Shown: piece by piece, positions 2,323-52,141 of the stretch
How positions within the stretch are numbered: the first letter of the stretch is position 1
How the letters are laid out: every line of letters starts with the position of its first letter
Program-made: the position numbers and the translations under genes
Assembly (NCBI GenBank): GCA_951406725.2
Contig: OX597817.1
Span: forward strand, 133,920,001-133,984,000
DNA from: Octopus vulgaris
Lineage: Eukaryota
Length of the DNA: 64,000 nt
Direction of reading: 5' to 3'
Notes under the pieces: generated by a model
The model's input: the letters and a program-made list of their open reading frames with translations, nothing else
Database searches by the model: none
What the model was told of the DNA's origin: nothing

Positions 2323-2613
2323 GACATAGATATAGATAGATAGAGAGAGAGAGAGAGACATATGTTTATATATATGTTTATATAATAGAAATATTAAAAT
2401 AACTAAGTCTCTCTAAAAGAGAACAGCGGCAGCGTTCCCGGAAAATAATAGTTATCGCCATACTAATATGGCATTCTTATAAAAATAAGAGAAAAGCTGT
2501 CCGCTTATTAGCTCCATGAGGCCATCGCCTTAAGTTAGCTATTTGATACACAAACTGTATCCATATAACCTTCGAACAAGGGAGGTCAGTCGCTCCACAC
2601 TACTTGACCGGCA

Positions 2614-2655
2614 GCTACAGACGCGTTTCGGGGTATTGCCCCTTTTCAATGCAGC
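2614..2655 (-). ncRNA. Type I hammerhead ribozyme, U3:A8 variant
   Basis: Reverse complement: GCUGCA UUGAAAA GGGG-CAAUA-CCCC GAAA CGC GUC UGUAGC. Confidence 0.8.
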
Positions 2656-2920
2656 GTAGCCAGCCAGTAGGTGTCGCTTCCGACAATCTCTGTTCGATGG
2701 TTTTATTTACCTAGTTTCGGTGGAATACATCCACTTGTTTTCAATAATAGAAATATTAAAATAACTAAGTCTCTCTAAAAGAGAACAGCGGCAGCGTTCC
2801 CGGAAAATAATAGTTATCGCCATACTAATATGGCATTCTTATAAAAATAAGAAAAAAGAAACTAGGTAAATAAAACCATCGAACAGAGATTGTCGGAAGC
2901 GACACCTACTGGCTGGCTAC

Positions 2921-2962
2921 GCTGCATTGAAAAGGGGCAATACCCCGAAACGCGTCTGTAGC
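2921..2962 (+). ncRNA. Type I hammerhead ribozyme, U3:A8 variant; predicted cleavage after C2956
   Basis: Stem I gctgca/tgtagc extended by tggctggc/gccggtca; core TTGAAAA; stem II gggg/cccc; GAAA; palindromic stem III acgcgt; GUC triplet. Confidence 0.8.
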
Positions 2963-3282
2963 TGCCGGTCAAGTAGTGTGGAGCGACTGACCTCCCTTGT
3001 TCGAAGGTTATATGGATACAGTTTGTGTATCAAATAGCTAACTTAAGGCGATGGCCTCATGGAGCTAATAAGCGGACAGCTTTTTTCTTATTTTTATAAG
3101 AATGCCATATTAGTATGGCGATAACTATTATTTTCCGGGAACGCTGCCGCTGTTCTCTTTTAGAGAGACTTAGTTATTTTAATATTTCTATTATTGAAAA
3201 CAAGTGGATGTATTCCACCGAAACTAGGTAAATAAAACCATCGAACAGAGATTGTCGGAAGCGACACCTACTGGCTGGCTAC

Positions 3283-3324
3283 GCTGCATTGAAAAGGGGC
3301 AATACCCCGAAACGCGTCTGTAGC
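3283..3324 (+). ncRNA. Type I hammerhead ribozyme, U3:A8 variant
   Basis: Identical to 2921-2962, one 362-bp period downstream. Confidence 0.8.
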
Positions 3325-3499
3325 TGCCGGTCAAGTAGTGTGGAGCGACTGACCTCCCTTGTTCGAAGGTTATATGGATACAGTTTGTGTATCAAATAGC
3401 TAACTTAAGGCGATGGCCTCATGGAGCTAATAAGCGGACAGCTTTTTTCTTATTTTTATAAGAATGCCATATTAGTATGGCGATAACTATTATTTTATG

Positions 3500-15002: not shown

Positions 15003-15007
<5 letters not shown>

Positions 15008-15832
15008 TAGTTTTATTTTTTTCACGTGCTTTCACTTCACTACCGGGTGCAGCTCTGTGTGCCTTGGGTATGTGCCTGTGATTTGTTGTGATGCTCTGAT
15101 GGTTACTGTACTGAAAGTGTTCTGCGTAGGATGTGTGCAGTGCCTAGTAGTGCAATTATTATTAGTATTAGTATTCAGTAGTTTTATTTTTATAGTGTGC
15201 TTTCACTTCACTACCGAGCGCAGCTCTGTGTGTCTTGGGTATGTGCTGTGATTTGTTGTGATGCTCTGATGGTTACTGTATTGAAAGTGTTCTTCGTAGG
15301 ATTTGTGCAGTGCCTAGTAGTGCAATTTTCTGTATGTTATATGTGTTTGTAAGTCCTGGTGTTTTTGTTATGTATTTGTCGGAATATTTTTTTATCATAC
15401 TTAATGCGCCTACTATGATAGGAATTGTTTCTGTTTTTAGATTCCACATTCGAGTTACCTCTATTTCCAGGTCTTTGTATTTTGAAAGTGTCTCCATTTC
15501 TTTTTGAGAAACGTTGTCATCTGCTGGTATTGATACATCAATTAGAAAGCATTTTTTCTTCATGATCTCTGACAACTATATCTGGCCTATTGGCCTTAAT
15601 TTATCTATCTGAGTGTATTGGCACATCCCAGAGTATGGTTGCTTTTTCGTTTTCTGTGACCTTTTCTGGTGTCTGCCTATACCATCTGTTTTCTGTTGTT
15701 ATTCCATAGTGTTGGCATAGCTTCCAGTGTATGTAGGTCCCAACTCTGTCGTGTCTGTGAATATATTCCTTCTTAGCCAGGACTGGGCAGCCAGAGATAA
15801 TATGATTTATTGTTTCTTGTCCAGCTCCACAT
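15003..15832 (-). mobile_element. Two 5'-truncated Dong/R4-like copies (15003-15160 and 15172-15832) in (TTA)n
   Basis: CGAGQETINHIISGC...KKCFLIDVSIPADDN...IQKIALLGTAQILRRTLSIQ*; 3' end ...aaactactgaa(taa)n. Confidence 0.9.
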
Positions 15833-15891
15833 ATTATTATTATTATTATTATTATCATTATTATTATTATTATTATTACTATTATTATTAC

Positions 15892-16920
<1,029 letters not shown>

Positions 16921-17230
16921 AAATTTGCCGCGATTTATTCCTAGCGTCCCCTCCCCCTCCCCACTACAAATATAGACCACTTTCTGCAGCTAATTCAAGA
17001 CAACTGAATTTCACAAATAAAACTTAAACCTAATTAACCTATTAATATAGTTTTTCATCTATAACCTCATTTTGACCACTTTATTATCATCCCCCTTTTC
17101 TTCAACGCCCCCAGGGGTCACTTTGAGTTTCTATTTCTTTTGGTAGCTATGTTTCTGGGCATAACTGTTTAGTGATGTTTTAAACTGAGTGACTAATTTC
17201 CTCCTTTTTATATTCGTTTTTGAGAAAAGT

Positions 17231-17440
17231 CGGTGGGCTGGCAGAAACGTTTGTATGCCGGGCGAAATACTTAGCTGTATTTCGTCTGCCTTTACGTTCT
17301 GAGTTCAAATTCCGCCGAGGTCGACTTTGCAGTTCATCCTTTCGGGGGTCGATAACTTAAGTATCAGTTGCATACAGGAATTGATCTAATCGACTAGGCC
17401 CCTCCACCAAAATTTCGGGCCTTGTACCTAGAGTAGAAAA
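17231..17440 (+). mobile_element. tRNA-derived SINE, family A
   Basis: gggctggcagaaacgtt...gttcaaattccgccgaggtcgactttg. Confidence 0.75.
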
Positions 17441-17951
17441 GACATTCATTTGTGAGGAGTCGCTTTGTTTTTGTTTGGTAGCGGCGTCGCTCGTGACACG
17501 TGTTTTTCTTTTATTTTCTGTGTGTCATGTAGGCATTATTTATGTTGCATGTACATATTATCACGTGCTCATGGATGCATGGACAGTTGCATGTATAGGT
17601 AAGTTTTCAATTTACGTACTTACTGTGTATTAGTGCGTTTTTCCATGGTTCCGAGAGCTGGTTTCGACGTCGTGTGTATGTCACATTGAGATATCACGCA
17701 TTTAAGAAAGAACATACACTGCATGTAACAAAAATCTTCCCCATTTTTAGTTCCATTACTTTAACAGGACTTTTCCCATAGATGTATCGCGAAGTTTTTC
17801 TTCCATTGCACCGATGTTATTGGATTAATATTGTTTTGTGGGGAGAGATTCTTAGTGTAGGTCCATATTCTTATTTAGCCCGAAGCTATTCTTATCATCA
17901 TTCTTCTTTTTCTTTCGCCCTTGTGGCAAATAAATGAAATCATCATCATCG

Positions 17952-17999
<48 letters not shown>

Positions 18000-18019
18000 C
18001 ATCATCATCATTATTATTA

Positions 18020-18066
<47 letters not shown>

Positions 18067-18077
18067 GTTATTATAAT

Positions 18078-19360
18078 TCAGTAGTTATATTTTTATAACG
18101 TGCTTTCACTTCCCTACCGAGCGCAGTTCTGTGTGGCTTGGGTGTGTGCTGTGGTTTGTTGTGATGCTCGTATGGTTACTGTACTGAAAGTGTTCTGCGT
18201 AGGATGAATGCAGTGCCTAGTACTGCAATTTTGTGTATGTTATATATATTTGTTAGTCCTGGTATTTTTTTTTTAATGTATTTGTCTGAATATTTTTTTT
18301 TTATCATACCTATCATACTATGGTAGGAATTGTTTCCGTTTTTAGATTCCACATTGGAGTTACCTCTATTCCCAGGTCTTTGCCTTTTGAAAGTTTCTCC
18401 ATTTCTTTTAGAGAAACGTTGTCATCTGCTGGTATTGATACATCAATTAGAAAGCATTTTTTCTTCATGATCTCTGACAACTATATCTGGTCTGTTGGCC
18501 TTAATTTCTCTATCTGTGTGTATTGGCATATCCCAGTGTATGGTTGCTTTCTCGTTTTCTGTGACCTTTTCTGGCGGGTGCCTATACCATCTTTTTTCTG
18601 TTGTTATTCCATAGTGTTTGCATAGCTTCCAGTGTAGGTCCCAACTCTGTCGTGTCTGTGAATATATTCCTTCTTAGCCAGGACTGGGCAGCCAGAGATA
18701 AAATGATTTATTGTTTCTTCTCCATCTCCACAGATTCTGCATTTACTTGTTATGTTTCTTTTCATTATATGTTTTTGGTAATTTCTGGTGGGGAGACTTT
18801 GGTTTTGTGCTGCAATTAAAAATCCCTCTGTCTCTGCTTTGAGTCCTGAGCTTCTCAACCATTGCTTAGATTTTTCTCTGTCTATTTCTTTTGCGTTTAG
18901 TTTAGCCCAGTATTTGCCATGAGGGTGCTTTTCTTGCCATCGTTTTATAATGGTCTGTTGCTGTTCTAGTTTTAGTTTTGATTTCATATGTTTTATAACT
19001 TTTGTTGTTGTTTCTTCTTCTTCTTCATATTTGTTAGGTAGTATGACTTCTTGTTTGTATTTGTCAGCTTCCTTAAATACTGAAAACAGTATTTTGTTTT
19101 GCTCGTGTTTTGTGGCTATTTCTATCAGTTTTTCTTGCTTCTGAAGTAGGTATTTTTGCAGTCTTATGATGGTTATTGTATAATAGTTTTCCAGCTGTAT
19201 AAGGCTTCTACCACCTTCTATACGTTGCATATATAGCCTTTCTATGTCAGATTTTGGCTGGTGCATCCTAGATCCTGTCATGATTTTTCTTGTTTTCCTG
19301 TCTATTTTGGTTAGTTCATTTAGTGTCCAGTTAAAGACTGTTGTACTTAAGGATATTGTC
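18078..19360 (-). mobile_element. 5'-truncated Dong/R4-like retrotransposon (thumb, CCHC, RLE)
   Basis: ORF 18604-19281: RLYMQRIEGGRSL...WLRSSGLKAETEG...CRICGDGEETINHFISGC; between (TTA)n tracts. Confidence 0.9.
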
Positions 19361-19448
<88 letters not shown>

Positions 19449-19452
<4 letters not shown>

Positions 19453-22400
19453 TAGTTTAAATTGTATAGTGTGCTTTCACTTCACTACCGAGCGCAGCTC
19501 TGTGTGTCTTGGGTATGTGCTGTGATTTGTTGTGATGATCTGATGGTTATTATATGGAAAGTATTCTGCGTAGGATGTGTGCAGTGCCTAGTAGTGCAAT
19601 TTTCTGTATGTTATATGTGTTTGTAAGTCCTGGTGTTTTTGTTATGTATTTGTCTGAATATTTTTTTATCATGCCTAATGCACCTACTATGAAAGGAATT
19701 GTTTCTGTTCTTAGATTCCACATTGTGGTTACCTCTATTTCCAGGTCTTTGTATTTTGAAAGTTTCTCAATTTCTTTTAGAGACACGTTGTCATCTGCCG
19801 GTATTGATACATAAATTAGAAAGCATTTCTTTTCTTCATGATCTCTGACAACTATATCTGGTCTGTTGGCCTTAATTTCTCTATCTGTGTGTATTGGCAC
19901 ATCCTAGAGTATGGTTGCTTTCTCGTTTTCTGTGACCTTTTCTGGTGTGTGCCTATACCATCTTTTTTCTGTTGTTATTCCATAATGTTGGCATAGTTTC
20001 CAGTGTATGTAGATTCCAACTCTGTCATGTCTGTGAATATATTCCTTCTTAGCCAGGACTGGTCAGCCAGAGATTAAATGATTTATTGTTTTTTCTCCAT
20101 CTCCACATATTCTGCAGTTACTTGTTTTATTTCTTTTCATTACATGTTTTTGGTAATTTCTGGTGGGGGGGGCTTTGGTCTTGTGCTGCAATTAAAAATC
20201 CCTCTGTTTCTGCTTTGAGTCCTGAGCTTCTCAACCATTGCTGGGATTTTTCTTTGTCTATTTCTATTGCATTTAGTTTAGTCCAGTATTTAACATGAGG
20301 GGGCTTTTCTGGCCATCGTTTTATCATGGTTCTTTGCTGTTCTAGTTTTACTTTGGATTTCCATTGTTTTATAGCTTTTGTTGTTTCTTCATCTTCTTCT
20401 TCTTCTTCATATTTGTTAGGTGGTATGATTTCTTGTTTGTATTTGTCAGCTTCCTTAAATACTGAGAACAGTTTTTTGTTTTGCTCGTGTTTTGCCGCTA
20501 TTTGTATCATTTTCCCTTCCTTCTGATGTAGATATTCTTGCAGTCCTATGGTGGTTATTTTATTGTAGTTTTCCAGCTGTATAAGGCCTCTACCACCTTC
20601 TATACGTTGTATATATAGTCTTTCTATGTCAGATTTTGGGTGATGCATCCTAGATCCTGTTATTATTTTTCGTGTTTTCCTATCTATTTTGGTCAGTTCA
20701 TTTAGTGTCCAGTTAAGGATATTGTAGCTGTAACTTATAACTGGGACAGCTAAAGTGTTAATACCTATTATCTTGTTTTTAGCATTGAGCTGTTTTTAGT
20801 ATTGATCTAACTCGTCTATAATATTCTTTTTTTTATTTTCTCTTTCATTTGTATGTGTTGTGTCTTATCTAGTTCATGGATTCGTAAGTATGTGCAAGTT
20901 TGGCTTTGGTCTAATTCTTTTATTTCATTGGTTTTATCTAGTGTGATGTTGTTACTCTTAACTAGTTTTCCTCTTTTCATGGTTACTTTGGCGCATTTTT
21001 CTAATCCAAATTTCATATCTATTTCTTTGGTAAATCCATGCCAGCTGTTTGTCATTTGCAGCGTATAGTTTTAGGTCATCCATATATAAAATGTGGCTGA
21101 TCTTGCCGTAACATTTATATCCGCATCCAGTACTATTTAGCATATCAGATAGAGGTGACAGTGCCAAGCAGAAAAGGAGTGGAGAGAGCGTGTCTCCCTG
21201 GAATATTCCTCTTCTAATGGGGATGGCTTTGGTTTTTATGAGTCCCTCTTTTGTTTGGAGCTGTAGCACTGTTTGCCATTTATTCATAGAGTGTCCTATG
21301 AATTTTATGATTGTTGGTACTACTTTGTTAATGGCTAGTGTTTCGAGGATCCATGTGTGGGGGATGCTATCAAACGCCTTTTTGTAGTCGATCCAGACCA
21401 TACTGAGGCCTTTCCTCTTTCTGTGGCTGTCTTAAGTTATGACTTTATTAATCATTAGTTGATCTTTACAGCCATATGAGCGTTTGCGGCATCCTTTCTG
21501 CTCTTCTGGGAACAGGTTGTTTTCGTCCAGGTGCTTGTTCAACCTTTGCGATATCACTGCAGTAAATGCCATGTACATTGTAGGGAGACAGGTTATTGGT
21601 CTGTAGTTTCTGGTTTTGCTGTCTCATTTGATTTGAGAATTAAGATAATTTTCCCCTTCGTGAGCCATTCAGGCATTGTCTCTGGCTCTGCCAGTATGTT
21701 GTTAAAATTTTCAGCCAGCTTTTTGTGCATTCATGTTAGATATTTCAACCAGAAGTTGGGGATCTTGTCATGCGCAGGTTCCTTCCAGTTGCTTAGTCTT
21801 TGCAGTGCCTGGGTGACCGCTTCAGTTGTTATGGGGGTCCAAAGTTGCTCAGATGCTGAGTTTGTTGTTTTAATACTCCTTTTTTTGGTTGTTCGTTCGC
21901 CGACCATATTTCTCTCCAGAATTCTTCCACTTCTTCTGCCGTTGGTGCTGCAGTGATTTCTATTTTATTTTTGCCAAGTTCTTGGTAGAACTTTTTGTGG
22001 CTGGAGTTGAACTTTTTGTTTTGTTCAAAGAAGAACTGGCGTTTCTCGTACCGGCGGATCCTTTGTGCTTTGGCAAGGATATCTTGCTTTAGCTTTTCTT
22101 TTATCTCAGGTAAATCTTTTTCTGTGATGTTGTATTTGCGGAGTATTTTTGTTTTCTTTTTGTTGCTCAGTAGCGTTGATTGTCTACTGATTTCATTAAG
22201 AATCGACAGATCTTTTTTCATTTTTTGTATTTTGTTTTGGATGTTATTTATCCACAGGATTTGTTTGGGTGGTGGTACTCCTGTTTGGACGGGTTTGAGT
22301 GAGTATCCAGCTTCTTTTGTGACTACAGTGGCTGCTGCGTATACTAAGACATTTAGCTCAGTGATATCGCTTTTTGTTTCAGTGGCTATTAGTTCCGTGA

Positions 22401-22678
22401 CGGCTAGGTTTATGCTGTTTATAATTGGTGTTGTTGTTTCGTCTATTTTGATTTTTGGGAGGTATGGTCGGTGGTCCATTTTGAGCTCTGTGGTTTTCAG
22501 CTTTTTGATTATTCTACTTTTTATATTATCATAATCATTAGGCTCCCCTTCGTTGTTTCCAGGTTTTAGATTTGTGTCATTTTCTTTCTTATTTGTATGT
22601 TTGTTTATCGTGTTTTGGCTTGCTGTTTGTCGTGTATTATTATGCATCCTTACGTTCTGGGTTTGTTGTTTTTTGTTT
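19449..22678 (-). mobile_element. Near full-length but frameshifted Dong/R4-clade non-LTR retrotransposon (RT, CCHC, RLE)
   Basis: WIDYKKAFDSIPH, GIFQGDTLSPLLF and HILYMDDLKLY (RT); RPDIVV...SIP...KLSKY (RLE); inserted in (TTA)n as known for Dong. Confidence 0.92.
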
Positions 22679-22690
22679 CTTCTTCTTCTT

Positions 22691-22792
<102 letters not shown>

Positions 22793-24473
22793 GCAGGTGC
22801 TTAGCGCATTTCCTCCGTCTTTACATTCTGAGTTCAAATTTCGACTTTGCTTTTCATCCTTTCGGGGTCTTTAAATTAATTAACAGTGAAACATTGGGGT
22901 CGACTAGTCCTCACCCTCAAAATTTCAGGACTTGTGCCTTTAGTAGAAAGGGTTATTATTATTATTATTATTATTATTATTGTTGTTGTTGTTATTATTA
23001 TCATTATTATTGAGTGAGATAGCAGCGCATATCATCAAAGTGACACTGGGGTACAGATATATGAAGTGCAACATATCCATCATTGCTACCCGTCCGATAA
23101 GGGTACATAAGGAACATATACCACAACTATATGTAAGCAGTTCTTTTATACAATCCGTTGGCCTATAACCTGATTGTGAGTAGAATTAAACTCTCCTAAG
23201 TTGTAGCTTAAACATAGTCTTCCGAACGGTATTTCACTGCTGAATATATTACGTGTTATAAAGATGCGAAGGCCCTTTCGTTTGTTTCATATCGGTGACA
23301 CACTCTTCGTTGTCCATAAGTTTGTGATAGTTAGATAAAATGAATGTATATTAAAAACTAACTAATAAAACTAATAACCAGCATTTGAAATATGTTATCA
23401 ATTACAATATATATATCGATACGTTGTTTCAAGTGCTGTATAAACTTCAGAGAAAACCCAGCAACAATACGGAGTGTTTTATAGTGGAATTATTACTATT
23501 TTCACATCATGGTGTCTCTGGGAAGGAATAAAGAAAAACAAACAAACAAATAGAAATCTTTAAAAATAACACCAAAAGCAATAACTGAATAAAGATGGCG
23601 AGAACCATTCATTTTGGAACTTCCGCGAGAAATTACTCGCTGAGCTGTGAAGCTTGATAACTTAATCTCTTAAGGTTTCCGTAAATGTGTCTTCAATGAA
23701 AATTCTTTGAGAAAGATTTTGTTTTGTAGCAAGTTAAGGTTATCCATATTGTTGAAAGAAGCAAGACAATTATCAGCACCAAAGTTTTCGCGTTCTTTAG
23801 AAACTAGTCCCAGTGCAATTTCGCTTTAAATCAGACGCTTCGAAGATAATTCTAATTAATATTTTGGTTTCTGTCAACTGCTTTGGCTTCGAAATCTTTC
23901 ATCAAAAGAAAATGACACTTCCCCCACGTTTTCGTATTGTCTTTCCATTTTCTCACCCCTCTTATATTCTCCTATGAAGCTGTTTGGCAAATTTAAACTA
24001 TTTTACTTCTTGCAGTTTAGTGCGGGGATTGGCGGTTTTTGTTTTGTTTTTTGTTTTTTTACAGTGAACATTTTGAAATCACTTCACAGAATCTGTTGAA
24101 ATGGTTTTGAAATGTTTGTACTTTTCAAGATAGAACGCTGCAAAGTCGTTTGCGGGTCTATTTTTGTGTTTTTTCTTCATTTTTGTATTTTATGTTATAT
24201 TCAAGTCAGTCAGTTCAACTTCAGACGTGTTACCATAAACATAACTTCTTCAAGAGGTTTAACAATTTTAATGATATTCACCGCATCACAGGAATCCTCT
24301 TTTAAAACATTTCCAGAAGCATCAAGGAAATTAGTTGGTCCATAATAATTATAAAACAAGGTATCAACTTTACACTGAAATCAATTTAGAACAAATTAAT
24401 TAATTAATACATATTATATAATACTACGATTCATTTACGATGCACGCTTTTATAATTTGAATAAGGCCGCTAG

Positions 24474-26954: not shown

Positions 26955-28339
26955 TAAAAAAGGAAATGAAGAAAATGCTGACAAATAATTGAAGTAATTT
27001 AAGTAATTTAATTAGGTGAAAGTTCTTTTTACCGGTTGCGCATTTGTTATGCTTATCAAAATATAAAAGAGAGATTAGAGTCTGTCTCTTATATGTGAAA
27101 AAAAGAGGCTCCAGAGTTGTTTGGGATTTGCTTGGTTTCGCGCCTAAAATTTTGATTGGTCATTATGAAGGGGTCACGTGAATGTTTGAATGGAAGTTGG
27201 TGTTGGGGTAAGAAAAAGGCTCCAGAGAAGTTAAAATTTGGCTAGTGTCCCGCCTAAAATTTCTTATTGGCCATAATAAAGAGGTCACGTGAATGTTTAG
27301 AATTTTCGAAAATAGTGTTGTTGAAAATTCTTATTGTTCAGGCTGGTCAGTAGACGTCATGTGGATATTTTAAATAGCTTTTTAGCGCGTAGTTAGGGAG
27401 TGTATTTTCCGCTTGACTGAATAAGTAAGTTCGTTTAGAACAGGGAGAGCTGTATGTATGTATGTGTGTGCGCGCGTGCGCGCGTGTGTGTGTTTATATG
27501 TATGTTGGGGCGCGCGCGCGTGTATATATGTGTGTGTGTGTGGGTAAAATTTTCAATATTTATAGTTCTGCTGGCCTTGTGCCTGTATCGGGAAGCAACG
27601 TATTTGTGTGAAGTCAATATTTACAGCCATTTCCAAAAATAGTGTTGGATGTTTTGCACCCGTATTCAATTATGTGTATGTGTGGAACCATATATTTGTG
27701 TGTGTCATGGTGTTAATATCTGGGTAAAGGTGTGTGTAGGGTGTGTGCAGGTGTAAGTGTGTTTGTTGTGGGTTCGTGTTAGGGGCATGTGTTTAGAAGT
27801 GGTCTGTATTTATTAATAAGGTGGGATTCCATGGTTATTCGCTGGGTATGAGTGGCATTGTCTTTAAATTTGTAGAGGAGAAAGATTCTAAAATTGGGAT
27901 GGAGTTGTGCGGCACAGGTATCAATATGTGCACTAAATGCTATTTTTCTATATTCCTGTATTTTTATTTGGGATCTGTGGACAGTCATGCGTTGGCGGAG
28001 GCTATTTTTTGTTTGGCCTATGTAGTGTTCATTACAGCCCGAGCAAGTTAAGACATATACTAGGTTTTCTGATGCGCATGTGAAGTTGTGTTTTACTGTG
28101 AAACGTTGTCCTTGTTTAAAAAGGAATTCCGGACCTTCTATTAGGTTGATGCATATACCACAGTTGGGTCTATTGCATTTGTTTACTGTGGGTTTAGTTG
28201 TTGTGGTTGGCAGTACTTTGGCATTTGTTAGGATGGTTTTCAATGATTTGGGTTGCCTTTTGCTCTTTATGATTTCGTGTGTTAGGAGGATTTGGTTCAT
28301 TCTATGGTCCTTTTGTAATACAGGAATGTTCTGGAGTAC
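26955..28339 (-). mobile_element. 5'-truncated Penelope-like element (PLE) with 3' pLTR region ending in (TA)n
   Basis: GIY-YIG ORF, then 3' UTR with a duplicated ~90-bp CCAAT/E-box module (27101-27302) and a decayed hammerhead (~27024-27070). Confidence 0.8.
27779..28300 (-). CDS. Penelope-like element GIY-YIG endonuclease domain (partial)
   Basis: CNRPNCGIC...FTCASENLVYVLTCSGCNEHYIGQT...RMTVHR...HID...ESHLINKYRPLLN. Confidence 0.9.
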   Translation of the reverse strand: MNQILLTHEIIKSKRQPKSLKTILTNAKVLPTTTTKPTVNKCNRPNCGICINLIEGPEFLFKQGQRFTVKHNFTCASENLVYVLTCSGCNEHYIGQTKNSLRQRMTVHRSQIKIQEYRKIAFSAHIDTCAAQLHPNFRIFLLYKFKDNATHTQRITMESHLINKYRPLLNTCP

Positions 28340-28427
28340 CTCTGCAATCGATAGAAAGTCTCAGCTAACTAGAAGGTAAGCTGCCGGCTGACTGTATATC
28401 TAGGCAGTAGTTCGTATCACAGAACCA

Positions 28428-28496
<69 letters not shown>

Positions 28497-28595: not shown

Positions 28596-29634
28596 GTTCG
28601 TGCATACATATATTCTGCTTCGACCACATTCTTGTTTTTTTCTGGATCGGCATAAATGCATAGATACACATTTCATTCCACATTAGAGTATGTTCATGTA
28701 TGTATCTATGATTTGGTACATACCTGTATGATGTGTGTGTGTGTGTTTGTGTATGCACTGGATTCTATGTTTAGAATTAGGTTATACAGCAGGTATTGTC
28801 TACTCTACTGACGTTGAAGTGTAGTTCGATTTAACATCGGTCAAGTAAGAACTGTTGCGAACATTAAAGAATAAATCGATATCGGAATATTGGTAATTCC
28901 AGTGTTTGTTCCTGAAATATCTCCCTTTATAATAAGACTGCAGCTATATATCACTCGCATAAGAAAGCTGCTTATAGACTTTACCCACAATTCCTTTTCA
29001 TTCTTCTGCAATATTAAAGTACTTGGATATAATCAGTTGTAGTTTAATTGTTCTTTTAATACTCTCTACATGAAGTGTCTGAAATTCTTTCGACAGAGCA
29101 GAGCTTATGTCAAAGCAGAAAAACGTGATTTTATAAATATAACCAAAATGTCGATGTTACTGCCTGCATAAAAAAAAAACGTGATCTTAGACCATGATGG
29201 CGGGATTCGGTATTTTTTTTTTCTTTGGAAATCTTTAGGAAATGTCCAGTAATTTTTATTCGCCAAATTTTTCAAGTTTGTCTAAATTTAAACTCTGCAA
29301 TCGATAGAAAGTCTCAGCTAACTAGGAGGTAAGCTGCCGGCTGACTGTATATCTAGGCAGTAGTTCGTATCACAGAACCAATACTGTACTATGCCAGTGA
29401 TCAACTTAACAGCTCCTCATTGCTTTTGTCCATTTGACTTAAGATGACGAATTAGCAAGGTGATTAGAGGGTTGGGTAAAACAGAAGGCTTTGCAATATG
29501 TATTCCGACGATTTGAGTTCAACAACTTGCGACACCAAATTTGACCTCCAACCCTTAAATATACGATCAGTTTCTCTCAGAATCGATTTGTGGCCAAGAA
29601 AGAAGTTATTCCTCGCAGCCTCACTAATACTTAC

Positions 29635-34560: not shown

Positions 34561-35764
34561 TACACATTTTTTAATGAAGTCTTCATGCATGGTTAGGTAA
34601 TAAAGTTGACTTTGTACATCTCTAATCCATTTATCGATCCAAACTCTTCAACAGAGTCAATCATTGTTGTTTGGTGGCGCTTATTGTTGCAACCGGTTTT
34701 GGTACAGTTCTCAGTAAATTGCATTGCTTTCAAGTGCATCTGACCAGTAGTCAGACCAAATTATTACCTGTCGAAACCGTTTCTATCCACACGCTCAGTC
34801 CTTCAATTATAACATCTCCTATCAGATGTAGTAATAAAGGCCATTGATAATCATCTACTCAGAAAACCAATCAAGGCCTGGGAACTGCTGCAGTGACATC
34901 AGCAAGAACATGTCCCCGGAGAAGAAGATGACGGTTGCAGCTCCACCCGTTCGAAGAGCAGCACAGTGTGTAACTCCAATGATTACTAAAGCTTTAATAA
35001 TTCCCTTTGAAAAGGGAGCGAAATCGCCTCGACTCCAATACTCCGGCACTAAAAGCCATTACTCTTCTCCTCCAAACGCAGTAGTGGCCAGAGGATTTCT
35101 GTGGAATTACTAATCCACTCTGTTGCGGTCATGGGCTGGAGAGGACAACTAGAAAAGAGGATGAAACTACCCAAGATAAGAAAAGGAAGGAAAAATTATG
35201 AGTCAAAACAAATGAAAACAGGTGCCCACCACTACGGAATACTCAAACCTTTACAAGATCCGAAGTAGAAGCTTAATCTACTTTAAAGCTAGATCTGAAA
35301 TACGACGTATCAGTTATTGTGCTTTTTAAGGAGGAAATGAGAGATGAATACCAAGTCCTCAAAGATTATAGATGGTTAAAGAAGATCATGGTCTGGGTTT
35401 ATTATGTGGGGACACTCACGGCTCGACTAACACTGAAAATGCTTATGGGCAAACGAAATTGCTCACTGTGAAACCCGATTTGCAGACAGTGATCGTTACA
35501 AAAGATATGGCGCAGTGGTCCCTGAACCTACAATAATGTACTTCTCAGAAATGTCCAAGTTCACCCTATTTGTACCTTGTTTGTAGTTACATGTATTTGG
35601 TTAATACAAAACATTTTAATTAGGTAAGTACATTGTATTAGCATTTATTCCATCACTAACGTTTCTCGAAACGTAAAAGACTTTTTCATTTTTACCGAGC
35701 GTCAAATTAATACACTTGTTTGTTGTTTTTACACCTGTCTGAGCCTTTTTTTCTATAAATTTCA

Positions 35765-35991
<227 letters not shown>

Positions 35992-36477
35992 TGAATTCAC
36001 AGAAAAACAAAAGACGACGACAGGTGTATAAACAACAAACAAGTGTATTAGTTTAACACTCAGGAACGTCAGAATGTCTTTTACATTTCGAGTCTACGCT
36101 CTTCGACAGAAACGAACACGATGAAATAAACAGAGAACGAATAAAAAAAGGCTTTCGGTACACACACATACACATATTTTCTCTCCCTTTTTGTCTTTCC
36201 TTTTTTTCTCTACTTGTCGTTTCTGTGCCCCTTTGTGTAGTAGAGGGTAGGCTCGAAACGTAAAAGACTTTTTCTATTCCTGAGCGTTATACTAATACAT
36301 CTGTTTGTTTTGTACACCACCTGTCTTCGTCTTTTGTTTTTTTCGTAAACTCTCCCTATATATATATATATCAACAGGAGTTATGAGTGAGTTACTTAAA
36401 ATTTCATGCTCGGATGAGGCAAATATTGGACTGGCTTTAATAGCGTACCTTGCGAAATTTGGTATGTATTCGGACTC

Positions 36478-38750: not shown

Positions 38751-38818
<68 letters not shown>

Positions 38819-39566
38819 CTTTAACTCCCAGTTTTCCTCCTCGTTTATCTCCTGGTCTAAGAGTTGAAATCACGACCTCGCGATCGTAAGTCGAACACAC
38901 TGACCACTTACCCATGCATCTTCATGCTTCGTATTTAATAAAATGCAAGAATTTATAAACAGAAAGTGATACCTAACCCCAGAGACAAGCTGCTAGCACC
39001 AACTCCCCGTTACATAATTTTATTAAAACTAAAACTAAAAGATAAACTGGATGTATACACGATTAAAGGCAGCTCGTCTATAATTAAGATTTAAAACTCA
39101 AATTGAACATAAAAATTTATAGATAATAAAAGGTTCGCCCATAGAATAACCTTTTAGATGTAAAATTATGATCCAAATTGCAATTTTGCATGTTCAGGAA
39201 CAAATACAGAATTAGTTTTACAAAACAGCTACTAAAAGCGAATATCCTTTCATAACATTCATAGCATGCATAAACAGTTTGCCATCTTCACCACTACGAC
39301 AACAGAAAGAAACAACCAAATCAGTTAAAAGAATTTGTTCGTTCATTAAACGATGTTTACTTAAATAACCAACCTAAACATATAAAATATATACAATTCC
39401 AGATCACCTTTTCCTTCGCACCCCACTCCTGTATAGTCATAACTGACAAGGCTTTTCAACCGATTCCTATTGTAACGATGATTGTTGGAAGAATTAAAAA
39501 AACACAGAAATATAGTTGTTGCAATCAAATTTACATTGATTTTGCACGCATGCATGCACGCACGCA

Positions 39567-39734: not shown

Positions 39735-39800
<66 letters not shown>

Positions 39801-39963
39801 GTTATCGCCATACTAATATGGCATTCTTATAAAAATAAGAATAAAGCTGTCCACTTATTAGCTCCATGAGGCCATCGCCTTAAGTTAGCTATTTGATACA
39901 CAAACTGTATCCATATAACCTTCGAACAAGGGAAGTCAGTCGCTCCACACTACTTGACCGGCA

Positions 39964-40005
39964 GCTACAGACGCGTTTCGGGGTATTGCCCCTTTTCAAT
40001 GCAGC
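39964..40005 (-). ncRNA. Type I hammerhead ribozyme, U3:A8 variant
   Basis: Same as 2614-2655. Confidence 0.8.
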
Positions 40006-40325
40006 GTAGCCAGCCAGTAGGTGTCGCTTCCGACAATCTCTGTTCGATGGTTTTATTTACCTAGTTTCGGTGGAATACATCCACTTGTTTTCAATAATAG
40101 AAATATTAAAATTACTAAGTCTCTCTAAAAGAGAACAGCGGCAGCGTTCCCGGAAAATAATAGTTATCGCCATACTAATATGGCATTCTTATAAAAATAA
40201 GAATAAAGCTGTCCACTTATTAGCTCCATGAGGCCATCGCCTTAAGTTAGCTATTTGATACACAAACTGTATCCATATAACCTTCGAACAAGGGAGGTCA
40301 GTCGCTCCACACTACTTGACCGGCA

Positions 40326-40367
40326 GCTACAGACGCGTTTCGGGGTATTGCCCCTTTTCAATGCAGC
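40326..40367 (-). ncRNA. Type I hammerhead ribozyme, U3:A8 variant
   Basis: Same as 2614-2655. Confidence 0.8.
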
Positions 40368-40687
40368 GTAGCCAGCCAGTAGGTGTCGCTTCCGACAATC
40401 TCTGTTCGATGGTTTTATTTACCTAGTTTCGGTGGAATACATCCACTTGTTTTCAATAATAGAAATATTAAAATTACTAAGTCTCTCTAAAAGAGAACAG
40501 CGGCAGCGTTCCCGGAAAATAATAGTTATCGCCATACTAATATGGCATTCTTATAAAAATAAGAATAAAGCTGTCCACTTATTAGCTCCATGAGGCCATC
40601 GCCTTAAGTTAGCTATTTGATACACAAACTGTATCTATATAACCTTCGAACAAGGGAGGTCAGTCGCCCCACACTACTTGACCGGCA

Positions 40688-40729
40688 GCTACAGACGCGT
40701 TTCGGGGTATTGCCCCTTTTCAATGCAGC
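40688..40729 (-). ncRNA. Type I hammerhead ribozyme, U3:A8 variant
   Basis: Same as 2614-2655. Confidence 0.8.
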
Positions 40730-41210
40730 GTAGCCAGCCAGTAGGTGTCGCTTCCGACAATCTCTGTTCGATGGTTTTATTTACCTAGTTTCGGTGGAAT
40801 ACATCCACTTGTTTTCAATAATAGAAATATTAAAATTACTAGTCTCTCTAAAAGAGAACAGCGGCAGCGTTCCCGGAAAATAATAGTTATCGCCATACTA
40901 ATATGGCATTCTTATAAAAATAAGAATAAAGCTGTCCACTTATTAGCTCCATGAGGCCATCGCCTTAAGTTAGCTATTTGATACACAAACTGTATCCATA
41001 TAACCTTCGAACAAGTAGCTGCCGGTCAAGTAGTGTGGAGCGACTGACCTCCCTTGTTCGAAGGTTAAATGGATACAGTTTGTGTATCAAATAGCTAACT
41101 TAAGGCGATATGATATATATTTATTCTTATTTTTATAAGAATGCCATATTAGTATGGCGATAACTATTATTTTCCGGGAACTCCCAGAGAGACTTTAATT
41201 TTAATATTTC

Positions 41211-41246
<36 letters not shown>

Positions 41247-41337
41247 TTAACTCCCAGTTTTCCTCCTCGTTTATCTCCTGGTCTAAGAGTTGAAATCACG
41301 ACCTCGCGATCGTAAGTCGAACACACTGACCACTTAC

Positions 41338-41372
<35 letters not shown>

Positions 41373-41669
41373 TATGGCATGTGTAGAACCGGTCCTGAAT
41401 CGGAACTACGGTTGAAATTGATTTGGTACTTACGTATCTATAGTACCCCATTGTTTTACTTTACTGTGGACCCTATGTTGTTGTACCTAGCCATTTCTGG
41501 CGCCCTACCTGCTGATATGCCTAGATTCTGTTGAATTCTAAAACTAATCTCTCTCTTTCTCTCTCTCTATATATATACATGTATGTGTGTGTATTATACA
41601 CACGCACATACAGACACACACACACACTCACGCACACACACACATATATATATGTATGTATATACATAC

Positions 41670-41701
<32 letters not shown>

Positions 41702-41735
41702 TTATATATATATATATGTATATATATATTTATGT

Positions 41736-41791
<56 letters not shown>

Positions 41792-41940
41792 GTATGAGTA
41801 AGCTGGTGTTTGTTCTGTCACACCTTGACCAAAGTTTTTTGATTTGTTTAGATATGTGCTGTGGTCAATTTGTTCCAGTAATCTCCAGCATCGCTGCAGT
41901 GAAATAAGAGAGTAAAGTGTGTATGCATATACATACATAC

Positions 41941-42330
41941 ATGATGGCTGCCCCCTCGTTATTGAGTATGGCCACTGCACGAAGCTTAACTGTTACTGGT
42001 GCTGTGATCGAATGTGACTTTTTAGCCCAGCTAAAGATCTACAAAGTCTCGTACAGAATTGGCAGCTAAAACCTTTACCGGCAGTAGCCGGCTGTAGTTG
42101 TAACTGGGCTTCATGTACCTTTGCATGTCGTTTCAGTCCTCCTGCCGAATTACACTCTCTTCCACATGCCCGACAGATATGATTAGTATGGTGTGTAACA
42201 CCACCATCAGAGGACAGGTTGTCACTCATCTGTCTTGCTTTTTGACTACGAAGATGACTCTTGAGTCCAGCATTACTGAGGCGTACATACATAATCAAAA
42301 ACCTAGAAATACTCGGTTCCACGGAGAAAG
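41941..42330 (-). mobile_element. RTE-clade LINE 3' end with C2H2 zinc fingers
   Basis: CRACGRECNSAGGLKRHAKVH and CQFCTRLCRSLAGLKSHIRSQH, then a short 3' tail ...ggccatactcaataacgagggggcagccatcat(gtat)n. Confidence 0.7.
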
Positions 42331-48724: not shown

Positions 48725-49565
48725 GTATGTATATATATATATATATAAGATCCAGGTTTCCAGGTGTAGGAAGAAGGTTTAGCTTACAGCAATCTGTAGT
48801 GAATAAAAAAAAAATACTTTCAGAAACAATAATGGTTTATTGAGATGGAAATTTCCAGATTGTTTTTCTTTTATCGAAGAACGATGAGCTGGAACGAAGT
48901 TCTTTTTATATTCCTCGGTAGGCATCCAGAGTTGCCGAGTGTGCGAAAAAGAATACAAGGGTTACGAAATGGAGTGTGGGAAATCCAGGCTACATATGCT
49001 TCATAGCGAGTGGACCTACAGAAGTGGTAAGATCCATGTGAGGTGTATACCGTCGGCTACTCTTCAGGCCAAGGATTCTGACTGAAATCTTTGCGTCAAC
49101 ACGTACTTCCTTCCGACAATGTAGTCTTTAATCTAATTCAGATATTCTTGGCCCGCGGTATACACCTCACTTGGATTTTACCACTTTTGAGGTTCCACTT
49201 GCTAGCTTCCTAGGGCTAAATAGCGGTGAGTGATTCCCTTTACGGGACTGTCACGTTAAGTTGACAGTATACAACCGCTTTATCGTTCTACCACCGCTCA
49301 TATCTCTCTGAGATATTTAGAAATTTAATATTTCTAATTTCGGTGATCAGTGAATAAACTTCACTGAAAATATATATGTTTACGAAGGCTTTGCAAGCAT
49401 CTTCAGCTAGCAGGCCATGCTACTCTAAATTGTCACGTGCATCGTCAGAGTGTTGGTTTTTCTGAGTTGGCTTTGTGATATTGTGAGTACAGAACATTGT
49501 TATTGTCGAAAGTATTGTTATTGTTGAATTTTTGAAAATTGTTTCATTGCTACCCACTGTTGAGT

Positions 49566-50828
49566 ATGCAAACAGCAAGTTACGCGCAAGCAGCAGGTAA
49601 AAGCATGTCTGCCGACACGATGCAGTTAAAAGAGATAATAATCGAAAAGGGAAATCTGAAAAAAATATTTTGAAAGTTTTAAGAAGGAAGGAGATTGCCT
49701 TCGAATCACACCGCCGAAGGACGATGTAGAAAAAGCGGAGAGAAAGATCATTGTCTACAGAACGTGGAATGTAGCCACGAAAAATATAGAAGTGGCAGAG
49801 ATAGAAGACATCGAGGAATGTCTAGCAGAGATAAAAGATAGGACTACCTTCTACACAAGAGGAAGGAAGTTTGCTACCGTAGAAGTACGTTTTGAAAGTG
49901 AGGAAGAAGCTAAGAGACACGCTACTACGGTATTGAGAACAGCTAGGTGGATACTTCTACCTACCTATTGTGGAAAACAAGCAGCGAAAGTGAGAATAGG
50001 AAAAGTACCAACGGAGATAGATGTAGAAAGGCTGGTAGCAGCCATAATATACAATTGTAAAGAGGAGGTAGATATCCTCAAAGTTGAAAAATCAAGAGAC
50101 GTTAACTGGTGGAGTTATGATGTGGAAGCCCTGATACACATAACCCTGCCGGATTTACACATGATTGCAGAGGAGTTGATGCTACTCGACGAAACCCGAC
50201 TGAGAGTCGTGGTGGAGACCACCAATATGTTACAAATGTAAAAGTAGGGGACATATGCAAGCAAAGTGTCCCCTAAGAGAAGTGCAGGTGGAAGAGATGG
50301 AAATGTGCAGCGACGCAGCGAGAGAGTAGGAAAAAAAAGAAATAACGGCAGAAAGAAAGAGAACGAGGGTGGAGCCACCACCAAAAAGCTCCAAGAAGAA
50401 AAAAAACACCAGTAAGTGAAAAAGGAAGTACAGAGATTCGAACTCAGGAACCGAAGACAATGACAAAGAGTGAAGAAAATAAAGCTAAAAATAGGCGAAA
50501 TGCGAAGAATGGATGAGGAGAGCGAGTAAATTATGTAAGGCGAACAGGACGAGCTTTGGGACAGAATTTAAGAACGTTGATACTCTACGAAAAGAATATG
50601 GAAATAGAGAAAAGGTTAACCAAAACAAAAGGTTTGATAAGAGTAAAATTGGAACACGACATGTTTGAACCAAGCATTACAGCGGCATTAGTGGGACGAG
50701 AAAAAATGAAAAAACTAGTAGAGACATTCAAAGACAAGGTCAAATCATATAATATATATATTCGTTATGATAATCTGGCCAACGTGATTGGGCTGGAGGA
50801 CATAATAGAATATATAACAGATAGATAA
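49566..50828 (+). pseudogene. Frameshifted gag/ORF1-like nucleic-acid-binding protein (SYAQA motif, RRM-like region, CCHC zinc knuckle)
   Basis: MQTASYAQAAG...; ORF 49792-50241; shifted frame PICYKCKSRGHMQAKCP (CX2CX4HX4C) at ~50222-50272; basic tail and ORF 50556-50828. Confidence 0.75.
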
Positions 50829-51039
50829 ATAGAACGACTACAAACTGTATAAAGGAATTGTAAAATGAATCTGCGAGCTTGGGGGGATCGTAAGCCATTC
50901 CATTTTTCCATTACACATAACTCGTCTCATATTCATTATTTGTTATATGTACCCTAAATTTTGTATTGTTTGTATGTTATTGTAATATCCATTCTATATT
51001 CAGGCTACATGCCTATAATAAAGAGAAAGGCCATCATAC

Positions 51040-51085
51040 TCCAGACTGATGATGAGCAAGACTCAGAAACATGCATGTCTCTGGA
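51040..51085 (+). ncRNA. Canonical type I hammerhead ribozyme; predicted cleavage after C51079
   Basis: tccaga CTGATGA tgag-caaga-ctca GAAA catgcatg tc tctgga; palindromic stem III acatgcatgt. Confidence 0.88.
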
Positions 51086-51348
51086 TGCAGGCCTAGCTGT
51101 TGGGGGTGCTTGTCTCCCCTTCGTAACCATAAGAAAACAGGAAATGTGTCAAAGCCGACAGGAAGCGTCGATGCTTCCTAGGGCTAAATAGCGGTGTGGT
51201 GATTCCCTTTACGGGACTGTCACGTTAAGTTGACAGTATACAACCGCTTTATATATATATACACATATATATATATATATATATACATAAATACATACAT
51301 ATATATACATAAATATATATACATAAATACATACATATATATACATAA

Positions 51349-51400
<52 letters not shown>

Positions 51401-51480
51401 ATAAATATTAGGGAATAAATCCAAATTTACAAGGAAAAATCAGATTTAAGATTAAATCCAATTTTATAATAAAATATTAT

Positions 51481-51808
51481 ATTATAATAAATTAGAGGCA
51501 AAACCACTATTATGCAAATAAAACAAAGAAAGACTTAAGCCAATACATAAAATATAAAATAATTTATATAAATTAAAATTTAACAAATGAATAACCACTA
51601 CGATCGTGTGTCGATATAGGTGGTTTCTAAACATTCTTAACGTTAAGAATGTTTAGAAACCACCTGAAGAATGTCTAAGATGTGCTGACACGAAACGATC
51701 GTAGTGGTTATTCATTTGTTAAATTTTAATTTATATAAATTATTCTATATTTTATGTATTGGGTCTTTCTTTGTTTATTTGCATAATAGTTTTTGTCTCT
51801 AATTTATA

Positions 51809-51810
<2 letters not shown>
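51481..51810. repeat. ~330-bp imperfect palindrome centred at ~51641 between (TA)n tracts (inverted pLTR-like)
   Basis: ggtggtttctaaacattcttaa cg ttaagaatgtttagaaaccacc at the centre; arms match out to attataa... Confidence 0.85.
51658..51709 (+). ncRNA. Type I hammerhead ribozyme (A-C mismatch at the base of stem II); predicted cleavage after A51703
   Basis: aaccac CTGAAGA atgtc...gacac GAAA cgatcg ta gtggtt. Confidence 0.75.
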
Positions 51811-51840
<30 letters not shown>

Positions 51841-52141
51841 TATACATATATATATATATAAAATATATATACATAATATATATATATATGTATATATATA
51901 TTGTGGGTGTATATTTGTGTTTGTGTATTGTATATATATATATATATAACAAAGTCACTTTGATCCGTGTAGTAGAGGTGTTCTTAGAGGTAAAAGAATC
52001 CTTGTTTCTTTTCTGTCGAAGAGCGTAGGCTCGAAACGTAAAAGACTTGTTCTATTTCTATTCCTCAGCGCCATACTAATACATTTGTTTGTTTGTACTC
52101 CACCTGCCTTCGTCTTTTGTTTATTTTCGTTAACCTTCCCG

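What the first reader, a model, noticed from the sequence alone, without database searches (positions are those of the whole stretch)
41011..41030. Inversion junction in array 2 falls 1 nt from the predicted ribozyme cleavage site
Seen: the inverted plus-sense segment starts gtagctgccggtc at 41015. The predicted 3' cleavage product begins UGUAGCUGCCGGUC, so the cDNA stops essentially at the cut. Inference: this is a genomic footprint that the RNA template had been self-cleaved at that GUC before reverse transcription, indirect evidence of in vivo activity. A single junction could be chance; the array 1 junction (2858) lies elsewhere, in the second motif.
Basis: partly seen in the sequence, partly recalled or inferred. 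Interest (0 to 1): 0.75.

Follow-up and report, generated by a model that had tools for sequence, protein, structure and literature searches.

The report
Retrozyme inversion junction beside ribozyme cut
In an animal genome, a jumping 362-base repeat that carries a predicted self-cutting RNA is inserted as two back-to-back arms, and one arm begins 1-2 bases after the predicted cut, which possibly (about even odds) records copying of an already cut RNA but is a single case that other insertion ends do not repeat.

Summary
Array 2 is two diverging arms of a 362-nt hammerhead repeat (a non-LTR retrozyme) between (TA)n tracts. The right arm starts at +2 or +3 after the predicted GUC cut; the G at 41015 fits both arms. 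The hammerhead is well formed: U3-A8 core, stem III predicted only as a dimer. The inverted layout is the known Penelope-like insertion pattern. The right arm runs from the family's main 3' end (unit 238) back to the cut, as a copy of a self-cleaved linear RNA would. Chance of one such end among four is 3-8%. Against: only 1 of 4 5' ends in the window (1 of 7 with read-contig ends) lies at the cut. The other three arms read through six intact cut sites. Read contigs showed no cluster at the cut, although sensitivity was low, and did not confirm the junction. A 7-nt repeat spans the junction, and the arm is damaged (83% identity). Verdict: about even odds that this end records self-cleavage; it is not a rule and not proof of in vivo activity. 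Ordinary element, testable lead.

The parts
39737..39797 (.). (AT)n tract at the 3' end of the left arm (inferred priming target)
39795..41015 (-). Left arm of array 2: 3.37 tandem 362-nt units, 5' end at unit 40/41, 3' end at unit 175, three intact cut sites, 4 differences from the reference unit over 1222 nt
40326..40367 (-). Type I hammerhead, middle copy: stem I 6 bp, core UUGAAAA (U3-A8), stem II 4 bp, GAAAC-GC-GUC; predicted cut between 40332 and 40331 (other copies 40694|40693 and 39970|39969)
41011..41030 (.). Inversion junction; G at 41015 shared by both arms; junction-spanning 7-mer CAAGTAG recurs at unit 14-20
41015..41216 (+). Right arm: unit 2/3 to 238, no intact cut site; unit 97-124 and 187-205 replaced by short fillers, 2-nt deletion at 216-217; 83% identity overall, 99% over the first 95 nt
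41214..41244 (.). (TA)n tract at the 3' end of the right arm
41244..41339 (+). 96-nt exact copy of 38818-38913 between two TA tracts (inferred locally templated patch)
2382..2858 (-). Array 1 left arm: unit 124/125 to 238, 1.32 units, one intact cut site
2858..3496 (+). Array 1 right arm: unit 264/265 to 178, 1.77 units, two intact cut sites

Best explanation
Array 2 is a two-arm, Penelope-type insertion of a hammerhead retrozyme into a TA repeat, and its short right arm is likely a cDNA that was primed at unit 238 and possibly ran off the 5' end of an RNA that the ribozyme had already cut. Shown: the arms, their ends, the TA flanks and the motif. Inferred: a Penelope-like RT/endonuclease in trans nicks both strands in (TA)n and primes two cDNAs, one near unit 175 and one at 238. 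The long arm reads through three uncut or religated sites (circle or multimer). The short arm reaches +1, loses 1-2 nt, and is joined to the long arm through a 1-nt overlap, perhaps with short repair synthesis. If true this is a minority route: most templates were circular or uncut.
For: The right arm is exactly unit 2/3-238, the only one of 4 arms shorter than a unit and without an intact cut site. Unit 238 is a real family-wide 3' end: loose ends into TA-rich sequence at 40456 in 14 contigs of X1 and 2 of X8, and at unit 171 in 1 contig of X8; array 1 uses 238 and 178. So the arm looks like an RT product, not a DNA fold-back; it also matches the second copy (99%) better than the nearest (97%). 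Both arms of each array share alleles at unit 128 and 219. Positional chance 0.033-0.075 for four ends. Hammerhead core complete with U3-A8, a covariation reported active in vitro (PMC3088659, passages); 6-bp stem III predicted between adjacent units, the dimer mode of PMC4209133 (passages). Retrozymes self-cleave and give linear as well as circular monomers (PMC7229834, parts 2-4). R2 5' junctions track the ribozyme cut (PMC3774820, passages).
Against: One event. The other window ends are 40/41, 124/125, 264/265; contig-derived candidates are 342 and 126 (one opposite-strand joint in X3, orientation not given) and 42 (X8): 1 of 7, chance 0.057-0.13. None of the 24 loose-end rows shown (of 261) lies at 40329-40332, and table 6 is empty, while the 3' end at 238 does show. 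Stops cluster elsewhere: 124-126 and 40-42 (2 close pairs among 7, p 0.027; 4 among 9 with the internal jumps, p 0.003; post hoc, mixed data). Two other hammerhead elements in the window have 5' ends about 93 nt after and 60 nt before their cuts. CAAGTAG spans the junction and recurs 14 nt away; 3.8% of 3000 random junctions have such a repeat. For an anole PLE, uncut RNA was the dominant in vitro substrate and no RNA-seq ends were found at the cut (PMC11167929, parts 1-2). The junction is not among the joints listed for X1, the possible source run.
Confidence: 0.45

Rival explanations
1. Ordinary 5' truncation. Both cDNAs came from circular or uncut RNA; the right arm stopped or was trimmed near +2 by chance, and repair synthesis using the CAAG and GTAG repeats at unit 14-20 fixed the exact join.
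For: 3 of 4 window ends and 6 of 7 candidate ends lie elsewhere; six intact cut sites were read through. 7-nt junction repeat. The same arm carries two filler-for-deletion jumps and sits beside a 96-nt local patch, so joining was messy. 5'-truncated inverted copies are the norm for PLEs (PMC8557442, passages).
Against: Needs a 3-8% coincidence. The repeat can also be read as a cDNA end at +2 to +5 re-priming 15 nt away, which fits run-off (inference).
Confidence: 0.4
2. The RT paused at the folded but uncut ribozyme (stem II and the inter-unit stem III end just 5' of +1) and fell off there.
For: The structure just 5' of +1..+3 is among the 12% most stable of 362 positions (-7.8 kcal/mol); unit 40 ranks at 9%; stem III duplex -8.9 kcal/mol.
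Against: The RT passed this site six times in three arms. The other stops rank 22-63%.
Confidence: 0.07
3. Assembly or long-read artefact: the right arm, or its exact start, is a consensus error in a 200-bp palindrome with a 38-nt spacer.
For: Right arm only 83% identical while the other arms are about 99%. Junction not listed in X1 or X15. Degraded second arms of hairpins in nanopore reads are recalled, not from a call.
Against: The arm ends at the family's true 3' site in a TA tract; its first 95 nt are 99% identical; array 1 has the same layout with clean arms. Array 1's junction was not listed either, X1 was 80% read and a filter drops records.
Confidence: 0.08

Closest known systems
Non-LTR retrozymes of animals (Cervera and de la Pena 2020, PMC7229834, parts 2-4 of 6 read; Li et al. 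preprint 10.64898/2026.07.22.740005, part 1, passages and Discussion read)
   Same: Short non-coding tandem unit (362 nt; mussel 350-390), one type I hammerhead per unit, low GC, many copies, rod-like predicted monomer.
   Different: U3-A8 core instead of C3-G8; Rfam gives no hammerhead match. In the parts read these papers do not describe inverted arms or map 5' ends against the cut. Circular RNA not shown here. Supplements not seen.
Penelope-like element insertions (Craig et al. 2021, PMC8557442, passages; Frangieh et al. 2024, PMC11167929, parts 1-2 of 4)
   Same: Partial tandems, inverted 5'-truncated copy at the 5' end, (TA)n targets, two RT start sites leaving a tail at one end only.
   Different: No ORF; tail is 60-63 nt rather than 30-40; no partner PLE with a matching repeat found in the window. 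Frangieh found cleavage dispensable in vitro, which the footprint reading would qualify.
R2 elements with HDV-like ribozymes (Eickbush et al. 2013, PMC3774820, passages)
   Same: The logic: a ribozyme-cut 5' end sets the genomic 5' junction, joined by microhomology.

Membership tests
Type I hammerhead ribozyme | Catalytic core (3-8 pair, U4 G5 A6 A9, G12 A13 A14, UH triplet) | tested here: met
   UUGAAAA / GAAA / GUC in 6 of 6 copies; U3-A8 is a reported natural, active covariation
Type I hammerhead ribozyme | Stems I and II | tested here: met
   6-bp stem I with extension and 4-bp stem II in the MFE; z -2.33, 5 of 200 shuffles as stable
Type I hammerhead ribozyme | Stem III (monomer, or palindromic for the dimer form) | tested here: met
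   Not formed in a monomer; 6-bp ACGCGU duplex between adjacent units in the dimer MFE
Type I hammerhead ribozyme | Match to an Rfam hammerhead model | tested here: not met
   0 matches at gathering score; none among 98 matches at E up to 10
Type I hammerhead ribozyme | Self-cleavage at GUC | not testable with these tools
   Needs a transcription assay
Non-LTR retrozyme | 150-450 bp non-coding tandem unit, one hammerhead per unit, GC below 50% | tested here: met
   362 nt; none of 38 frames of 120 aa or more overlaps the arrays; GC 0.37 over 40001-42000
Non-LTR retrozyme | Multi-copy dispersed family | tested here: met
   Two arrays 36 kb apart; 2563, 471 and 1906 contigs laid in three DNA runs with many variants; 20 of 24 listed runs in 12 studies hold it, one a possible source
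Non-LTR retrozyme | Expressed as linear and circular monomers | not testable with these tools
   Only contigs were available
Penelope-type insertion | Inverted 5'-truncated copy at the 5' end; TA-rich target; tail at one end only | tested here: met
   2 of 2 arrays inverted, one arm ending at 175/178 and the other at 238; three outer ends in (TA)n (one after 4 extra nt), one in an AT-rich dimer
Penelope-type insertion | Autonomous partner with a matching terminal repeat | tested here: inconclusive
   A GIY-YIG fragment is in the window but has no blastn match to the unit; no genome to search
Ribozyme-defined 5' junction (R2 type) | 5' ends of many copies cluster at the cut | tested here: inconclusive
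   1 of 4 window ends, 1 of 7 candidates; no cluster in 24 of 261 loose-end rows; method missed both window junctions

The most novel reading that the evidence does not exclude
Hammerhead-cut linear retrozyme RNA is a real template for Penelope-type reverse transcription in the germ line, by twin priming on one RNA: the 238-primed cDNA runs off the cut 5' end while the 175-primed cDNA copies downstream units (in array 1 that cDNA stops 26 nt short of the 238 site). The inversion junctions of this high-copy family would then be a genomic read-out of in vivo ribozyme activity. I found no such report.
Probability: 0.35. Interest if true: 0.6.

Novelty: new member of a known kind. Interest (0 to 1): 0.35.

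Why it matters
What hammerheads do for Penelope-like elements is open (PMC8557442, PMC11167929, passages read): the one in vitro system found cleavage dispensable, and the retrozyme model assumes circles are the template. A young, high-copy family with sharp junctions allows a simple count of 5' ends that would show whether cut linear RNA is copied in vivo. One junction raises the question but does not answer it.

Tried and rejected
Own-genome histogram: no genome held. Metagenome scans: 0 hits for the core; 19 of 19 loci for the 3' product are chance 18-35 nt matches; viral contigs 0. Sequencing runs: no RNA holder listed; X8 is only guessed to be RNA, and one of its contigs crosses the cut with no difference (record 25), which says nothing on expression or strand. 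Summed contig depth shows no step at the cut in 4 of 4 runs, but depth is not copy number, so not used. Neither window junction appears among the 8 joints of table 5 or the 10 rows of table 5c: inconclusive. Rfam: no hammerhead match. 'Second motif' as a ribozyme: rejected on stem I. Simple fold-back on the nearest copy: disfavoured by alleles and by the 238 end. Hairpin-stall rule for all ends: not supported. In one search the ungapped difference list for the long arm was out of register by a 1-nt deletion; one search replaces it. Two papers (Terminons 2017; Lunse 2017) were not held and may bear on the literature claim; no supplements were read. PMC8490949 passages added nothing. Scan look-ups were empty; those did not bear on the junction.

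Full report
Setting. The window is AT-rich animal-type DNA full of microsatellites and retroelement debris. It resembles cephalopod DNA (recalled, from no call). No whole genome is held.

What is there. A 362-nt unit forms two arrays. Numbering from the predicted cut, array 2 has a minus-strand arm 39795-41015 (unit 40 to 175, 3.37 units) and a plus-strand arm 41015-41216 (unit 2 to 238). Array 1 has a minus arm 2382-2858 (124 to 238) and a plus arm 2858-3496 (264 to 178). In both, the 5' ends meet at the junction and the 3' ends point out into TA-rich repeats. One G is shared at each junction, so the array 2 right arm starts at +2 or +3.

The ribozyme. The motif reads GCUGCA-UUGAAAA-GGGG CAAUA CCCC-GAAAC GC GUC / UGUAGC. 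Stems I and II form in the MFE. The core carries U3-A8 in place of C3-G8, a covariation reported as active (PMC3088659, passages). Stem III is absent in a monomer but forms as a 6-bp duplex between adjacent units, the dimer mode described for metazoan type I motifs (PMC4209133, passages). Rfam does not match it. Cleavage itself is untested.

What the element is. Unit size, composition, copy number and one hammerhead per unit fit non-LTR retrozymes (PMC7229834, parts 2-4), proposed to be non-autonomous Penelope-like derivatives (preprint 10.64898/2026.07.22.740005). The inverted 5'-truncated arm, TA target and one-sided tail are standard for Penelope-like insertions (PMC8557442, passages). Two internal RT start sites explain the tail (PMC11167929). 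Here each insertion has one end at 175/178 and one at 238. Read contigs agree: TA-rich loose ends at unit 238 in 14 contigs of X1 and 2 of X8, and at 171 in 1 contig of X8. A different hammerhead element in the window has a similar tail behind one of its two terminal repeats (score 47; best of 1000 shuffles 36), perhaps a shared RT signal (inference).

For the footprint. The right arm starts at the main priming site and ends at the cut. It is the only arm under one unit and without an intact cut site. Chance for one of four ends is 0.033 (+1..+3) to 0.075 (+/-3). Linear monomers exist for other retrozymes and R2 junctions follow the ribozyme cut (PMC3774820, passages). The two arms of each array share alleles. 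In array 1 the 178-primed arm stops at 264, 26 nt short of the 238 site, as twin priming on one RNA would give (inference).

Against. The other three arms read through six intact sites, so most templates were circular, uncut, or amplified locally. I laid contigs of 4 of the 24 listed runs on one unit. One opposite-strand joint was listed (unit 342 with 126, orientation not given) and one TA-joined 5' end at 42, giving 1 of 7 candidate ends at the cut. None of the 24 loose-end rows shown, of 261, lies at the cut. Sensitivity is low, since neither window junction was listed, so this is weak; it also leaves the junction unconfirmed. Stops recur at 124-126 and 40-42 instead (post hoc). Two other hammerhead elements in the window have their 5' ends about 93 nt after and 60 nt before their cuts. 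The junction 7-mer CAAGTAG recurs at unit 14-20, seen in 3.8% of 3000 random junctions, so repair synthesis may have set the exact base; that can be read for or against run-off. The arm has two filler-for-deletion jumps and a neighbouring 96-nt local patch. In the only in vitro PLE system, uncut RNA was the main substrate and no RNA-seq ends mapped at the cut. Three earlier scan notes on similar claims in other genomes were judged not borne out (unchecked AI notes, leads only).

Weighing. My estimate is a judgement, not a computed result: if a tenth of arms came from cut RNA, an end at +2 would be several times likelier than by chance; the prior for that route is moderate and the read data lower it somewhat. 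That gives about 0.45 for run-off at the cut, 0.40 for ordinary truncation with repair, 0.07 for a pause at the folded ribozyme and 0.08 for an artefact.

Novelty. The element and the insertion layout are known kinds; U3-A8 is a known variant. A 5'-end footprint of hammerhead cleavage in this pathway was not found, but two relevant papers were not held and no supplements were read. Interest 0.35: ordinary element, one suggestive junction, a cheap decisive test.

Noticed in passing
window 49205-51249 (+): Element with 77-nt direct terminal repeats, a canonical type I hammerhead at 51040-51086, a 193-aa frame without Pfam match (49660-50241), an inverted piece at 49004-49204 and a TA tract at the 3' end. 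The upstream repeat continues into a tail (49281-49340) that resembles retrozyme unit 191-238.
   Followed up: partly
window 51392-51810: Fold-back element between TA tracts with a hammerhead-like motif at about 51660-51710; a perfect palindrome at about 51617-51663 marks the junction, about 60 nt before the cut.
   Followed up: partly
window 26956-28431 (-): 5'-truncated Penelope-like fragment with a GIY-YIG domain (27779-28360; E 3.5e-07) between TA tracts; its 5' end is joined to a 92-nt copy of 29293-29384 (98.9%).
   Followed up: partly
window 41244-41339 and 38818-38913: Exact 96-nt local duplication flanked by TA tracts beside array 2; second such patch in this window.
   Followed up: partly
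unit 124-126 (window 2858, about 41118; X3 joint at 40568): Three independent stops at nearly one position: array 1 left-arm end, the edge of the first deletion in the array 2 right arm, and a contig joint. May be an RT pause or a second RNA 5' end.
   Followed up: partly
unit 238-274 (window 40420-40456, -): Degenerate hammerhead-like second motif without stem I, starting exactly at the main 3' end of insertions.
   Followed up: partly
window 35665-35761, 36003-36356, 52006-52140: Another short TA-associated family in inverted pairs with a GAAACGTA motif, possibly a minimal hammerhead.
   Followed up: no
window 15005-22800 (-): Several fragments of a non-LTR retrotransposon (RVT_1 match at 20961-21431) ending in (TTA)n/(ATT)n tracts.
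   Followed up: no
place 40577: Array 2 carries a rare allele at unit 117; about 99% of summed contig depth in three DNA runs has the array 1 letter.
   Followed up: no
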